From assembly GCA_026713605.1 (NCBI GenBank), contig JAPOOC010000005.1, positions 18,836-82,835 on the forward strand: a DNA stretch of 64,000 nt. Reading direction: 5' to 3'. The translations under genes were made by a program, and so were the position numbers. The number at the start of each line of letters is the position of its first letter. Position 1 is the first letter of the stretch. Below are positions 26,804 through 58,046 of this stretch, piece after piece. The DNA comes from Candidatus Kaiserbacteria bacterium. Lineage in GTDB: Bacteria > Patescibacteriota > Minisyncoccia > Phycocordibacterales > JABAAK01. Below the pieces are notes generated by a model. That model searched no databases. It was given only the letters and a program-made list of their open reading frames with translations, and was not told where the DNA came from.

Positions 26804-26822
26804 ACAAACGCACACCAAGTAC

Positions 26823-26935
26823 CCAAAAAAATACGGGCTACGGCTTAGTGCCGCAGCCCGCAAGGGAAAAAAGAAAAAACCCACAGTGTTTGTTAACCTG
26901 TGGGTTTGAGGTTGAAGGCCAATCCTCACGGCCTT
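26823..26935 (-). repeat. Conserved terminator module, copy A (double-hairpin plus U-run); second copy at 43490-43602
   Basis: About 113 bp, roughly 97% identical to 43490-43602. Read on the minus strand it contains, in order, hairpins AAGGCC..GGCCTT, CCCACAGGTTAACAAACACTGTGGG + TTTTTTCTTTTTT, and CGGGCTGCGGC..GCCGTAGCCCG + TATTTTTTTGG. It lies directly 3' of a minus-strand small ORF. Confidence 0.7.
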
Positions 26936-26943
26936 GAAAAAAT

Positions 26944-27366
26944 TCACTTAGTAATGCGGCGTATGTCCAGATGGAAAAATTCACCCAGCCTTTTCAGAGC
27001 AGGCCGCATACCGACGCAAGTTCTCGTCTGCTCTATCCTATACACCCCCCAAGGGGCTAAGACCGAGTCTTCCGGAATCACGAAAACCTTTTCTTCTTCC
27101 TGTAGACCTTTGGCTGAGTAGAAGGGGTCGCCCCCCTCTTCGAACACACCCTTAAGGGGGAACTGAAGGAAATCCGACTCACTCTCAACTGAGGATCCTT
27201 GAAAAAGATTTACAAACTCTTTCTTCAGCTCTTTTTTTGTAAGAGTGCTACCGAGCACCCCAAGATCAACGCACACGGCGTCAACCTTTTCCAAACTTGA
27301 AATTTGAAAAATATGCAAGGAAACTTTTGTTGTGGCGATGCTGAAAAGCATCTCTTTATGTTTCAT
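26944..27366 (-). CDS. hypothetical small protein (cassette ORF A, ~140 aa)
   Basis: Starts at ATG 27364-27366, preceded by the strong SD AAGGAGGG at 7-nt spacing. The ORF-track version (to 27486) reads through the conserved leader. Not similar to the ORF at the second cassette. Confidence 0.45.
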   Translation of the reverse strand: MKHKEMLFSIATTKVSLHIFQISSLEKVDAVCVDLGVLGSTLTKKELKKEFVNLFQGSSVESESDFLQFPLKGVFEEGGDPFYSAKGLQEEEKVFVIPEDSVLAPWGVYRIEQTRTCVGMRPALKRLGEFFHLDIRRITK

Positions 27367-27876
27367 TTTTCCCTCCTTAGGGAATATGGAACACCAGAAC
27401 ACACAACGGTGTCTGGCATTCCGAGTTCGATTTCTAAGAAAACGCCATCCCACGGAACACCCGTGGTGGCAAAGAATCGGGTACATTAAGTAGCCCGCAT
27501 AACCTGACAGAATACTATCCGGTTATGTGGACTACCTAAGGTACTACTATATAAAAGAGCAAGAATCATACAAATTATACTTTACACGACTCTCTTAAGA
27601 TGTCTTTGCGGATTGCGCTAATAACACAAAATAGGAGTTTCCCTCCTGTAAATAAAGTTGCCGCTTCCCAAATACATCTTAAGAGAATTGTCTAAACCAC
27701 TGACTATAATATACCATAATATATTTAATCTGTCAAGCCCTCTCTTCTACCAAATGCTTGTAAACTATACACCGCTGCTTCCAAGTAATAGTACTATACC
27801 ACATATATAGCATTATGTCAAGTATCAGGCCATCCCCGCAAAAGAACTCGTGAAATAAGGGTTTTTGGGGGGTAGC
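27367..27876 (-). repeat. Conserved promoter/long-leader module, copy A (~510 bp); second copy at 44024-44534
   Basis: About 95% identical to 44024-44534 with no ORF of 60 aa or more on either strand. Minus-strand features: near-consensus promoter TTGACA-17-TATATT (27736-27708), a ~335-nt leader, and the hairpin CCACGGGTGTTCCGTGG followed by GCGTTTTCTT roughly 60 nt upstream of the SD AAGGAGGG + ATG (attenuator-like). Confidence 0.6.
27708..27736 (-). promoter_or_regulatory. sigma70-type promoter TTGACA-17-TATATT inside leader module A
   Basis: Reverse complement of 27731-27736 is TTGACA and of 27708-27713 is TATATT, with a 17-nt spacer. Confidence 0.5.
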
Positions 27877-43426: not shown

Positions 43427-43489
43427 GGCATACAGTATAGCAAGATAGTATATAAAATAGCCAAACGAAATATGTTGTATAAAAAGTAT

Positions 43490-43602
43490 TCCAAAAAAAA
43501 TACGGGCTACGGCTTAGTGCCGCAGCCCGCAAGGGAAAAAGAAAAAACCCACAGTGTTTGTTAACCTGTGGGTTTGAGGTTGAAGGCCAATCCTCACGGC
43601 CT
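43490..43602 (-). repeat. Conserved terminator module, copy B (partner of 26823-26935)
   Basis: Near-identical 113-bp element directly 3' of the minus-strand cassette ORF B. Confidence 0.7.
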
Positions 43603-43612
43603 TAACTAGGCA

Positions 43613-44023
43613 CTATTCCGAGGGAAAGTACCTAGAGTAAAGTTCATCAATGCATGGTCGGGGAAGATCCCCGAACACCTTCTGCACCACGGTGCAGTGT
43701 GGGGGGACGTGGTCCCCCACACACTCCCCGATCCCCGTGCAGTCGCGGTTCAAGTAGAGATGGGTGACTGTGGATCCAAACTTCTCCAGATCCGCGGAGC
43801 ACAAGAAGTTCGGATTCCCCTTGTTTGCCGCCAAGGCGGCCGCCTCGGACAAAGACCGTGCCGTGACGGTCACGACCTCGAAGGCGTCCTCCCAAGCAAC
43901 GATGCTTTTCCATCCGTTTTCGTTCACGGAGATGACCGGGGCCCCTTCTGCCCGAAGGCGGAAGGTGTACTTACGAATTTTTGCCGAGGTGGACGCGCTC
44001 GAAGTTTTCATTAAGTTCAACAT
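43613..44023 (-). CDS. hypothetical small protein (cassette ORF B, ~136 aa)
   Basis: Starts MLNLMKTSS at ATG 44021-44023 with an identical AAGGAGGGAAAA spacer upstream. Cys-rich C-terminus. Unrelated to cassette ORF A. Confidence 0.45.
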   Translation of the reverse strand: MLNLMKTSSASTSAKIRKYTFRLRAEGAPVISVNENGWKSIVAWEDAFEVVTVTARSLSEAAALAANKGNPNFLCSADLEKFGSTVTHLYLNRDCTGIGECVGDHVPPHCTVVQKVFGDLPRPCIDELYSRYFPSE

Positions 44024-44534
44024 TTTTCCCTCCTTAGGGAATATGGAACACCAGAACACACAACGGTGTCTAGTGTTCCGAGTTCAAGTTCAAAGAAAAC
44101 GCCATCCCACGGAACACCCGTGGTGGCAAAGAATCGGGTACATTAAGTAGCCCGCATAACCTGACAGAATACTATCCGATTATGTGGACTACCTAAGGTA
44201 CTACTATATAAAAGAGCAAGAATCATACAAATTATACTTTTACACGACTCTCTTAAGATGTCTTTGCGGATTGCGCTAATAACACAAAGTAGGAGTTTCC
44301 CTCCTGTAAATAAAATTGCCGCTTCCCAAATACATCTTAAGAGAATTGTCTAAACCACTGACTATAATATACCATAATATATTTAATCTGTCAAGCCCTC
44401 TCTTCTACCAAATGCTTGTAAACTATACACCGTTGCTTGCAAGTAATAGTACTATACCATAGATATAGCATTATGTCAAGTATCAGGCCATCCCCGCAAA
44501 AGAACTCGTGAACTAAGGGTTTTTGGGGGGTAGC
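44024..44534 (-). repeat. Conserved promoter/long-leader module, copy B
   Basis: About 95% identical to 27367-27876, including promoter TTGACA-17-TATATT (44394-44366 on the minus strand), the attenuator-like hairpin and the SD. Ends 10 bp from the prfA stop. Confidence 0.6.
44366..44394 (-). promoter_or_regulatory. sigma70-type promoter TTGACA-17-TATATT inside leader module B
   Basis: Same hexamers and spacing as copy A. Confidence 0.5.
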
Positions 44535-57689: not shown

Positions 57690-57718
57690 TTGACAAATTG
57701 ATACATATGATGTATAAT
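57690..57718 (+). promoter_or_regulatory. perfect-consensus sigma70 promoter TTGACA-17-TATAAT
   Basis: TTGACA at 57690-57695, a 17-nt spacer, TATAAT at 57713-57718. Confidence 0.55.
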
Positions 57719-57808
57719 ATATCATACATGGCAAGGTTGTGACGAGGGAAGACAAGCAGTACCCGACACTCTTTTTCAAAAATATTATTCACTACATATA
57801 CACCATAT

Positions 57809-57922
57809 ATGAAGCTCTACCAAAAGCTGATAGCAGCCGTCATAGTCACCACTCTGATGACGACGATCGCCGCTATTACAACTGCGTCAACCATTATGTT
57901 CTACAGTGTCGCCTACGCATAA
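57809..57922 (+). CDS. candidate 37-aa hydrophobic peptide (MKLYQKLIAAVIVTTLMTTIAAITTASTIMFYSVAYA)
   Basis: Lies 90 nt downstream of the consensus promoter and is followed by intrinsic terminator AAACGACCGAG-aatatt-CTCGGTCGTTTT (57943-57971). Single TM-like helix; no obvious SD. Confidence 0.3.
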   Translation: MKLYQKLIAAVIVTTLMTTIAAITTASTIMFYSVAYA

Positions 57923-58046
57923 AAACGCAGATAAAAAACTCAAAACGACCGAGAATATTCTCGGTCGTTTTGATTTCCTGCAAAAACAAATAAAAAACAG
58001 TGGTACTGAAAAACAGAGAAAGCGATCTACAACGACCACCGAAACC

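What the first reader, a model, noticed from the sequence alone, without database searches (positions are those of the whole stretch)
26823..27876. Cassette architecture: identical promoter/leader and terminator modules bracket two unrelated small ORFs 16.7 kb apart
At 26.8-27.9 kb and 43.5-44.5 kb the same ~510-bp upstream module and the same ~113-bp downstream module flank minus-strand ORFs of ~140 and ~136 aa that share no similarity. The upstream module has a near-consensus promoter, a ~335-nt leader and an AAGGAGGG SD; the downstream module is a double hairpin-U-run terminator. Conservation stops at the start codon and resumes just after the stop codon. This suggests a mobile or recombining expression cassette (integron- or shufflon-like swapping of coding payloads, or a family of highly expressed variable small proteins) rather than simple gene duplication.
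Basis: seen in the sequence. Interest (0 to 1): 0.7.

Follow-up and report, generated by a model that had tools for sequence, protein, structure and literature searches.

The report
Shared promoter-leader-terminator shell, two ORFans
In a sponge-associated Kaiserbacteria (CPR) genome, two unrelated small genes of unknown function sit inside near-identical copies of the same strong twin-promoter, long folded 5' leader and tandem terminator. This is a real and unusual duplication of a regulatory "shell", but I found no evidence of an integron- or shufflon-like swapping machine.

Summary
A 510-nt upstream module (U) and a 119-nt downstream module (D), 96-97% identical, bracket two minus-strand ORFs of 140 and 136 aa that share no similarity. 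Identity ends exactly at the ATG and resumes 8-9 nt after the stop.

U holds two tandem 11/12 sigma-70 promoters with extended -10, and a 335-nt leader that folds far better than shuffles (z -8.5). D holds two strong hairpin/U-run terminators after a third hairpin. Both ORFs look coding. Payload A has no relative at all. Payload B has foreign codon usage (GC3 0.73) and one homolog (41% identity) in another metagenome.

That homolog is preceded by a recognisably homologous leader: an identical 21-mer and two long helices kept through compensatory changes. So the leader is a conserved, unlisted structured RNA natively tied to the B family, and the shell was recently copied around unrelated payload A.

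No third copy, recombinase, attC, terminal inverted repeat or target duplication was found, but the rest of the source genome could not be searched. Contigs joining the loci reciprocally exist; they are most simply assembly chimeras. The closest analogues are phage PeSL cassettes and morons. Interest is moderate.

The parts
27367..27876 (-). Upstream module U, copy A: twin promoters plus structured leader plus SD, ending at the base before the ATG.
   Evidence: 96-97% identical to 44024..44534.
27793..27821 (-). Distal promoter-like site in copy A: TTGACA-17-TATAGT with TG before the -10.
   Evidence: 11/12 match. The copy in B lies at 44451..44479.
27708..27736 (-). Proximal promoter-like site in copy A: TTGACA-17-TATATT with TG. 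The predicted transcription start near 27700 gives a leader of about 335 nt.
   Evidence: 11/12 match. The copy in B lies at 44366..44394.
27584..27698 (-). Leader helix P1: 5' arm GGUUUAGACAAUUCUCUUAAGAUGU and 3' arm ACAUCUUAAGAGAGUCGUGU enclose a variable insert.
   Evidence: MFE and consensus folds. The arms are conserved in L015, and the inner 4 bp changed on both sides: AUGU/ACAU to GGUG/CACC.
27481..27544 (-). Leader hairpin P3: 64 nt, with the conserved core UAGUCCACAUAAC...GUCAGGUUAUGCGGGCU.
   Evidence: Folds. On the L015 alignment 98% of cells pair, with 2 pairs changed on both sides in aligned columns plus 2 more seen by eye. The covariance model scores 100.9 bits sense against 48.2 antisense.
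27364..27470 (-). Leader 3' part: hairpins P4 and P5, a small hairpin that includes the SD, SD AAGGAGGG, and the ATG.
   Evidence: Folds. Three A/B substitutions in the 5' arm of P5 all keep pairing. The overall substitution test is not significant.
26944..27366 (-). Payload A: 140-aa ORFan with host-like codon usage.
   Evidence: Found only as itself among 5.8 G proteins and 1.84 G representatives. No Pfam, PHROG, PADLOC, NCBIfam or PDB match. Codon score is best in the annotated frame; probability of being open by chance is 0.0004.
26817..26935 (-). Downstream module D, copy A: hairpin T1 (26915-26935, no U-run), terminator T2 (26873-26906) and terminator T3 (26825-26861).
   Evidence: 97% identical to 43484..43603. 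Terminator scan and fold.
44024..44534 (-). Upstream module U, copy B. It starts 10 nt after the RF1 stop codon.
43613..44023 (-). Payload B: 136-aa protein with GC3 of 0.73 against about 0.43-0.54 in neighbouring genes.
   Evidence: One homolog, P0003 (131 aa, 41% identity, E 4.5e-14). Composition and codon score. No family match.
43484..43603 (-). Downstream module D, copy B.

Best explanation
Each cassette is a self-contained, insulated, single-gene transcription unit.

- Two tandem near-consensus sigma-70-type promoters drive a 335-nt (proximal) or about 420-nt (distal) highly structured 5' UTR.
- The UTR ends in a strong SD. The ORF is followed by tandem intrinsic terminators.
- The structured leader (helix P1 plus hairpin P3) is a conserved RNA element natively associated with the payload-B protein family. 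It is not in Rfam.
- Its most likely role is cis-acting: stabilising the mRNA and/or gating translation through protein or ligand binding. This role is inferred, not shown.

In this genome the whole shell (U plus D) was copied recently between two intergenic sites; the copies differ by about 3-4%. It now brackets an unrelated ORFan as well.

- The most economical route is host homologous recombination or gene conversion. Junctions that preserve the ATG and the stop would then be kept by selection.
- The result is two unrelated small proteins placed under one expression programme.
- No dedicated site-specific recombination system is involved.
For: Anatomy of the unit:
- Module identity and exact boundaries.
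- Twin 11/12 promoters with extended -10, which are 4 of the 7 best sites in the window's two strands.
- Terminators.

The leader as an RNA:
- Leader fold z = -8.5. The homologous L015 leader gives z = -8.2.
- The sense strand folds 18-26 kcal/mol better than the antisense strand in all three copies.
- L015 shares the 21-mer and the P3 core. It folds independently into the same P1/P3 architecture, with both-sided changes that keep pairing: 4 pairs in P1 and 2-4 in P3. No pair is broken in the aligned stems except one terminal pair.

The payloads:
- Both look coding.
- B and B' are 41% identical over their full length.
- B is compositionally foreign and A is host-like.

Against a dedicated recombination system:
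- No recombinase in the Pfam lists for called genes at least 10 kb either side.
- No terminal inverted repeats or target duplications.
Against: - Only two copies and one outgroup are known, so the covariation evidence is thin. The shuffle control gave 69/500 with three sequences.
- The A-versus-B substitution test for RNA-level constraint is not significant: 2 of 9 substitutions break pairs, P about 0.25.
- Ordinary recombination does not by itself explain junctions exactly at the ATG and 8-9 nt past the stop.
- There are no expression data, and the function of both proteins is unknown.
- L015 has no D-like module. Its leader lacks the P4/P5 part, so the shell as a whole is not conserved.
- The rest of the source genome could not be searched for more copies.
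Confidence: 0.55

Rival explanations
1. Ongoing recombination-driven cassette shuffling, a chromosomal analogue of the PeSL promoter/stem-loop cassettes of T4-like phages. U and D would serve as portable homology arms through which ORFan payloads are captured, exchanged and excised as circles. The two cassettes seen here would be a sample of a larger pool.
For: - Unrelated ORFan payloads sit between conserved promoter and terminator modules.
- Payload B has foreign codon usage.
- Contigs with the reciprocal joins exist in three samples: RF1-U-A-D-GroEL (L002, L003) and L21-U-B-D-membrane protein (L009). The L003 and L009 crossovers are exact reciprocals within the 117-nt identical stretch.
- PeSLs do exactly this in phages and produce mini-circles (PMC2839356, PMC4122927).
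Against: - Only two copies are known, and no third copy was found in any collection searched.
- The junction contigs are 100% identical to the window outside U.
- In the sample that gave L002, the B contig simply breaks inside U. Both facts fit assembler chimeras through the repeat.
- The deletion product would lose about 16.7 kb of essential genes, including ValRS, LigA, RF2 and HisRS.
- All recovered contigs carry the same two payloads at 99-100% identity.
Confidence: 0.18
2. A non-autonomous mobile element (MITE-like, or an IS-derived element carrying a passenger gene). U and D would be its ends, and a transposase encoded elsewhere would mobilise it.
For: - A discrete unit of about 1.05 kb is inserted in two intergenic regions between housekeeping genes, with sharp outer boundaries.
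- Subterminal hairpins are present.
Against: - No terminal inverted repeats, no target-site duplication and no common target motif at the two sites.
- No transposase in the Pfam lists for called genes at least 10 kb either side of both cassettes.
- The interior, not the ends, is what differs between copies.
- The leader is conserved with its gene in another organism, as a 5' UTR would be.
Confidence: 0.05
3. Ancient paralogues whose coding regions diverged beyond recognition, while their flanks were kept homogeneous by continuing gene conversion (concerted evolution).
For: - The payloads are similar in length (140 against 136 aa).
- The U copies are mosaics: single-site exchanges are seen between copies in L010 and L005.
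- Conversion tracts would naturally stop where homology ends.
Against: - There is no residual similarity at sequence or profile level.
- GC3 is very different: 0.50 against 0.73.
- Identity drops from 100% to random at the first codon after the ATG, without a gradient.
- Structure models are too poor to test for a shared fold: pLDDT 36 and 46.
Confidence: 0.07
4. The 'leader' is primarily a stand-alone abundant small RNA gene, present in two copies, that happens to read through into a downstream ORF. Alternatively it is the RNA partner of the encoded proteins, as in an RNA-protein toxin-antitoxin-like pair.
For: - Twin strong promoters resemble those of stable-RNA genes.
- The fold is very stable, conserved and strand-specific.
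- There is a weak terminator-like hairpin inside P1.
Against: - There is no convincing terminator between P3 and the ORF.
- The SD and ATG are part of the conserved module, and the ORF follows directly, both here and in L015.
- The inner hairpin of P1 is not conserved in L015.
- No Rfam family matches.
Confidence: 0.12

Closest known systems
PeSL (promoter-early stem-loop) regulatory cassettes of T4-like phages (Arbiol et al. 2010, PMC2839356; Comeau et al. 2014, PMC4122927)
   Same: - Conserved strong sigma-70-type promoter, stem-loop terminator and SD motifs flank unrelated ORFan genes.
- Conservation runs from the stop codon of the upstream gene to the start codon of the downstream gene.
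- The repeats can act as homology for modular exchange.
   Different: - PeSLs are short single intergenic motifs, present in about 50 copies and clustered in hyperplastic regions of phage genomes.
- Here there are two copies in a CPR bacterial chromosome, among housekeeping genes.
- The promoter module (510 nt, with a 335-nt structured leader) is separate from the terminator module.
- Exchange and circle formation are not demonstrated.
Morons of lambdoid and other prophages (own knowledge: Juhala et al. 2000)
   Same: A single ORF with its own promoter and terminator, inserted between two unrelated genes. It is often compositionally atypical, as payload B is.
   Different: - There is no prophage context.
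- Morons do not normally share identical promoter and terminator modules with each other.
Integron gene cassettes
   Same: Promoter-proximal capture of unrelated, often ORFan, small ORFs with conserved sequence at the cassette boundaries.
   Different: - No intI, attI or attC, and no array.
- Integron cassettes are usually promoterless, whereas here every unit carries its own promoters and terminators.
Long structured 5' UTRs that stabilise or gate mRNAs, such as the ompA and cspA leaders and ribosomal-protein leaders (own knowledge)
   Same: A long, stable, conserved 5' structure directly upstream of the SD of a highly expressed gene, with conservation of helices across species.
   Different: - There is no sequence or model match to any described leader.
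- The same leader serves two unrelated genes.
- No ligand, partner or function is known.
Mycoplasma vlp/vsp-type variable gene families with conserved 5' regions (own knowledge)
   Same: Highly conserved promoter and 5' regions precede divergent coding regions at several loci.
   Different: - In those families the conservation extends into the signal peptide, and the proteins are related surface lipoproteins with repeats.
- Here conservation stops at the ATG, and the proteins are unrelated and lack signal peptides.

Membership tests
Integron | Tyrosine-recombinase integrase (intI) adjacent to the cassettes. | tested here: not met
   The precomputed Pfam lists for called genes covering window 16.9-54.0 kb contain no integrase, recombinase or transposase family.
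Integron | attC recombination site at the 3' end of each cassette, with cassettes arranged in an array next to attI and Pc. | tested here: not met
   - D consists of hairpins with U-runs (terminators), not an R''-L''/L'-R' imperfect palindrome with AAC...GTT cores at its base.
- The two units lie 16.7 kb apart, each with its own promoters.
Shufflon / invertible-segment systems | Inverted repeats flanking invertible segments, plus a dedicated recombinase (Rci/Hin-type). | tested here: not met
   The copies are direct repeats on the same strand. There is no recombinase nearby.
MITE / IS-derived non-autonomous transposon | Terminal inverted repeats (or conserved subterminal hairpin ends) and target-site duplication or a fixed target motif. 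| tested here: not met
   No terminal inverted repeats are shared by both copies, no duplicated flank exists, and the flanks differ.
PeSL-type regulatory cassette | A conserved composite of a sigma-70 promoter, a stem-loop terminator and an SD bordering ORFan genes. | tested here: met
   Promoters, terminators and SD lie inside the conserved modules, and the payloads are ORFans. This is a functional resemblance only; there is no sequence relation.
PeSL-type regulatory cassette | Many copies concentrated in hyperplastic regions of a T4-like phage genome, with recombination between copies demonstrated. | tested here: not met
   - There are two copies, in a bacterial chromosome and a housekeeping context.
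- No match in viral contigs or phage genomes.
- The recombinant contigs are ambiguous.
Any Rfam RNA family (riboswitch, leader, sRNA, 6S, HEARO, retron ncRNA and others) | A covariance-model match at or near the gathering score. | tested here: not met
   - The window at gathering threshold gives only two tRNAs.
- The cassette searched at E up to 10 and the L015 leader at E up to 1 give only sub-threshold chance hits.
Conserved structured cis-regulatory leader RNA (generic class) | The same architecture in independent lineages, with compensatory changes, upstream of homologous genes and on the sense strand. | tested here: met
   - U and L015 share P1 and P3.
- Pairs changed on both sides: 4 in P1 and 2-4 in P3.
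- The sense strand folds better than the antisense strand.
- The leader sits upstream of B and B'.
- This rests on only two lineages, so it is weak statistically.
Conserved structured cis-regulatory leader RNA (generic class) | A demonstrated regulatory effect or ligand/partner. | not testable with these tools
   This needs transcriptomics, reporter assays or probing.

The most novel reading that the evidence does not exclude
U and D are the homology arms of a chromosomal 'expression slot' system in CPR bacteria.

- ORFan genes, some of foreign origin such as payload B, would be captured, exchanged between slots and excised as circles by recombination through the modules. This would be a bacterial counterpart of phage PeSL shuffling.
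- A new class of structured leader RNA would impose common control on whatever payload is installed.
- The reciprocal junction contigs would then be real recombination products rather than chimeras.
Probability: 0.12. Interest if true: 0.75.

Novelty: new variant of a known kind. Interest (0 to 1): 0.42.

Why it matters
CPR bacteria have tiny genomes, few known regulators and many ORFan genes. A duplicated, very strong and insulated expression shell around unrelated ORFans suggests how such genomes install and co-regulate new genes. It also flags two proteins that are probably among the most highly expressed in the cell.

The leader is a candidate new structured RNA element, so far seen in two uncultured lineages. 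If more members exist, it would be a tractable entry point to gene regulation in Patescibacteria. The shell itself (promoters, leader, SD, terminators) would be a natural parts list for expression in these organisms.

If the modules really mediate exchange, this would extend the PeSL principle from phages to a cellular chromosome.

Tried and rejected
Searches for further copies:
- Genome contigs with the SD/ATG 20-mer. It returned only L011, another Kaiserbacteria genome that shares nothing beyond SD and ATG, and two Clostridia chance hits.
- Metagenome contigs with a D 25-mer gave none. A U 21-mer gave one chance hit, L014, with no other similarity.
- Four viral contigs pattern scans gave none.
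- blastn against phages and plasmids gave none.
- A six-frame "spurious ORF" query built from U and D against 5.8 G proteins gave none.
- With hindsight, the 21-mer GGTTTAGACAATTCTCTTAAG, which is conserved with L015, would have been the better pattern for the capped genome and metagenome scans.

Payload function:
- Pfam, PHROGs, PADLOC, NCBIfam and PDB sequence searches were all negative.
- AlphaFold single-sequence models were too poor to search with: pLDDT 36 and 46.
- P0004, a 1055-aa hit, is a translated tandem repeat and was discarded.

RNA-level selection from A/B differences:
- It looked promising in the consensus fold, where no pair was broken.
- It is not significant when tested against the A-only MFE with simulated substitutions.

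Idea that the junction contigs come from a diverged, rearranged strain:
- Rejected. Outside U they are 100% identical to the window. The lower BLAST identity came only from aligning U to the other copy.

Other structure-based ideas, all considered and not supported by the anatomy:
- Retron: no RT, and P1 does not enclose P3.
- IscB/TnpB omega-RNA: no nuclease ORF and no Rfam HEARO hit.
- Type III toxin-antitoxin: no tandem RNA repeats.
- attC-like reading of P3: the AAC/GTT cores are not at the base of the hairpin.

Weak similarities judged to be at chance level:
- The SD-proximal 30 nt of U against the B'-X intergenic region of L015.
- A 12-mer at the 5' edge of U against the region downstream of the L015 operon.

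Full report
**1. Observation**

The described architecture is present exactly as stated.
- On the minus strand, U_A (27876..27367) and U_B (44534..44024) are 96-97% identical.
- D_A (26935..26817) and D_B (43603..43484) are 97% identical.
- In a six-sequence alignment the identity runs through SD AAGGAGGG and ends at the ATG. It resumes 8 nt (A) and 9 nt (B) after the stop codons.
- The enclosed ORFs are 140 aa (27366..26944) and 136 aa (44023..43613). They have no DNA similarity and no profile-level similarity.
- No other copy of U or D exists in the 64-kb window. A covariance model of the main leader hairpin finds only the two known copies.
- Independent ENA and JGI assemblies reproduce both loci, including one 42-kb contig that carries both.

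**2. Anatomy of the modules**

- Each U carries two tandem promoter-like sites about 85 nt apart: TTGACA-17-TATAGT and TTGACA-17-TATATT. Both have TG before the -10.
- In the whole window, both strands, only seven sites reach 11/12. Four of them are these, and they are the only ones with the TG.
- From the proximal promoter the leader is about 335 nt. It folds at -135 kcal/mol against -90 +/- 5 for shuffles, z -8.5.
- The leader contains a long helix P1 (27698..27584) enclosing a variable insert, a 64-nt hairpin P3 (27544..27481), two further hairpins, and a small hairpin that includes the SD.
- D has three hairpins. The last two carry U-runs; one of them has a 13-bp stem.
- There are no terminal inverted repeats, target duplications or shared flank motifs.
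- No recombinase or transposase family appears in the precomputed Pfam lists for called genes 10 kb or more on either side of both cassettes.

**3. Payloads**

- Both ORFs score best in the annotated frame. They are unlikely to be open by chance: P = 0.0004 and 0.0045.
- A has host-like codon usage, with GC3 of 0.50. B is atypical, with GC3 of 0.73 against 0.43-0.54 for its neighbours and a codon score below every host-gene chunk.
- Neither matches Pfam, PHROGs, PADLOC, NCBIfam or PDB sequences.
- In 5.8 G proteins each finds only itself. One source names the organism Candidatus Kaiserbacteria bacterium.
- An exhaustive HMMER scan of 1.84 G cluster representatives gives no relative for A. It gives one for B: P0003, 131 aa, 41% identity over the full length, E 4.5e-14.
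- Single-sequence structure models are unusable.

**4. The key comparison**

- P0003 is encoded on a 25.7-kb contig from a different sample (locus L015). That contig begins 302 nt upstream of the gene.
- This upstream stretch is homologous to the U leader. It has an identical 21-mer, GGTTTAGACAATTCTCTTAAG, which is the 5' arm of P1.
- It also has the matching 3' arm CTTAAGAGAGT(C/T)GT, a conserved TAATTTGTAT, and the P3 core TAGTCCACATAAC...GTCAGGTTATGCGGGCT.
- Folded on its own, the L015 leader gives the same P1 and P3 architecture, z -8.2.
- The inner four pairs of P1 have changed on both sides: AUGU/ACAU to GGUG/CACC.
- In P3, 98% of aligned cells pair. Two pairs changed on both sides and two on one side. 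By eye there are two more both-sided changes in columns that MAFFT gapped.
- All three leaders fold 18-26 kcal/mol better on the sense strand than on the antisense strand. The model scores sense far above antisense.
- No Rfam family matches.
- I conclude that the leader is a conserved structured RNA natively linked to the B family.

Caveats:
- Only two lineages are available, so the shuffle control is weak (69/500).
- The within-genome A/B substitutions give no significant signal.
- L015 has no D-like module. It lacks the 3' third of U, and it continues into two small membrane or coiled-coil ORFs. The shell as a whole is therefore specific to the window genome.

**5. Origin and mechanism**

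- U_A and U_B differ by about 3-4%. U and the L015 leader are alignable only in blocks, and B and B' share 41% identity.
- The shell was therefore copied within this lineage long after the two lineages split. It now also brackets A, which has no relative anywhere.
- With no recombinase, att-like sites or transposon ends, host homologous recombination or gene conversion is the most economical explanation. Selection would then keep junctions that leave the start and stop codons intact. This step is inferred.
- Functionally the units look like maximally expressed, insulated single genes under a common leader. The leader's role (stability and/or translational gating) is also inferred.

**6. Recombinant contigs**

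- L002 and L003 join RF1-U to A-D-GroEL. L009 joins L21-U to B-D-membrane protein.
- The switch from B-type to A-type SNPs lies in the 117-nt identical stretch for L003, and reciprocally for L009. It lies just 3' of that stretch for L002.
- Outside U these contigs are 100% identical to the window.
- In the sample that gave L002, the B contig breaks inside U.
- A real deletion would remove essential genes.
- Assembly chimeras are the simplest reading. Low-frequency recombination or circles cannot be excluded without reads.

**7. Searches for more copies**

- All were negative or returned chance hits.
- The source genome is not in the searchable DNA collections, so the number of copies in the whole genome is unknown.
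- This is the main limitation of the verdict.

**8. Comparison with known systems**

- The nearest functional analogues are PeSL cassettes of T4-like phages and phage morons. PeSLs are conserved promoter/stem-loop/SD motifs that flank ORFans and mediate modular shuffling and mini-circles (PMC2839356, PMC4122927).
- This case differs in several ways. It is chromosomal in a CPR bacterium, has only two known copies, has separate promoter-leader and terminator modules, and includes a long conserved structured leader.
- Membership of integron, shufflon and MITE classes fails on their defining features.

**9. Verdict**

- This is a real and unusual feature, a new variant of the promoter/terminator-bracketed ORFan cassette theme. 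It adds a candidate new leader RNA.
- The integron-like or shufflon-like reading is not supported.
- Interest is moderate (0.42). It would rise if more payloads or real recombination products were found.

Noticed in passing
window 57690-57975 (+): The only perfect 12/12 sigma-70 consensus promoter in the window (57690-57718) precedes a 37-aa hydrophobic ORF (57810-57923, MKLYQKLIAAVIVTTLMTTIAAITTASTIMFYSVAYA). A hairpin/T-run terminator follows. The unit resembles a type-I-toxin-like small membrane peptide.
   Followed up: partly
window about 48.1-55.2 kb: Several segments of about 530-700 nt, 79-93% identical to each other, correspond to paralogous 211-aa genes. They are interleaved with VWA-domain and AAA_5 ATPase genes, forming a locally amplified gene module.
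   Followed up: no
L002, L003, L009, L017 (window 26.0-29.3 kb and 43.3-46.4 kb): Metagenome contigs join the two loci reciprocally through U, with crossovers in or next to the 117-nt stretch that is identical between the copies. Outside U they are 100% identical to the window. They are probably assembly chimeras, but real recombination or circles are not excluded.
   Followed up: partly
L011:4391-5349 (OY969413.1, another Kaiserbacteria genome): The identical 20-mer TCCCTAAGGAGGGAAAAATG precedes a 313-aa ORF of 63-66% GC, in a region that is otherwise 43-57% GC. An IS3-type transposase pair lies next to it. Nothing else resembles U, so this may be a shared strong RBS context in front of a foreign gene.
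   Followed up: partly
window 27361-27374 with 26863-26876, and 27490-27500 with 26831-26841 (same in copy B): The SD/AUG segment AGGGAAAAAUGAAA is complementary to UUUCUUUUUUCCCU between terminators T2 and T3. An 11-nt stretch of the P3 3' arm is complementary to terminator T3. This could be 5'-3' UTR pairing or chance.
   Followed up: no
window 43613-44023: Payload B has GC3 of 0.73 in a genome where neighbouring genes have 0.43-0.54. Its only homolog, B' in L015, has GC3 of 0.54, typical of its own contig. This suggests B was acquired from a higher-GC source.
   Followed up: yes
L015:8051-8794: The contig carrying the B homolog encodes a protein with a Spond_N (spondin-like, eukaryote-type) domain, which hints at a host-associated lifestyle for that organism too.
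   Followed up: no
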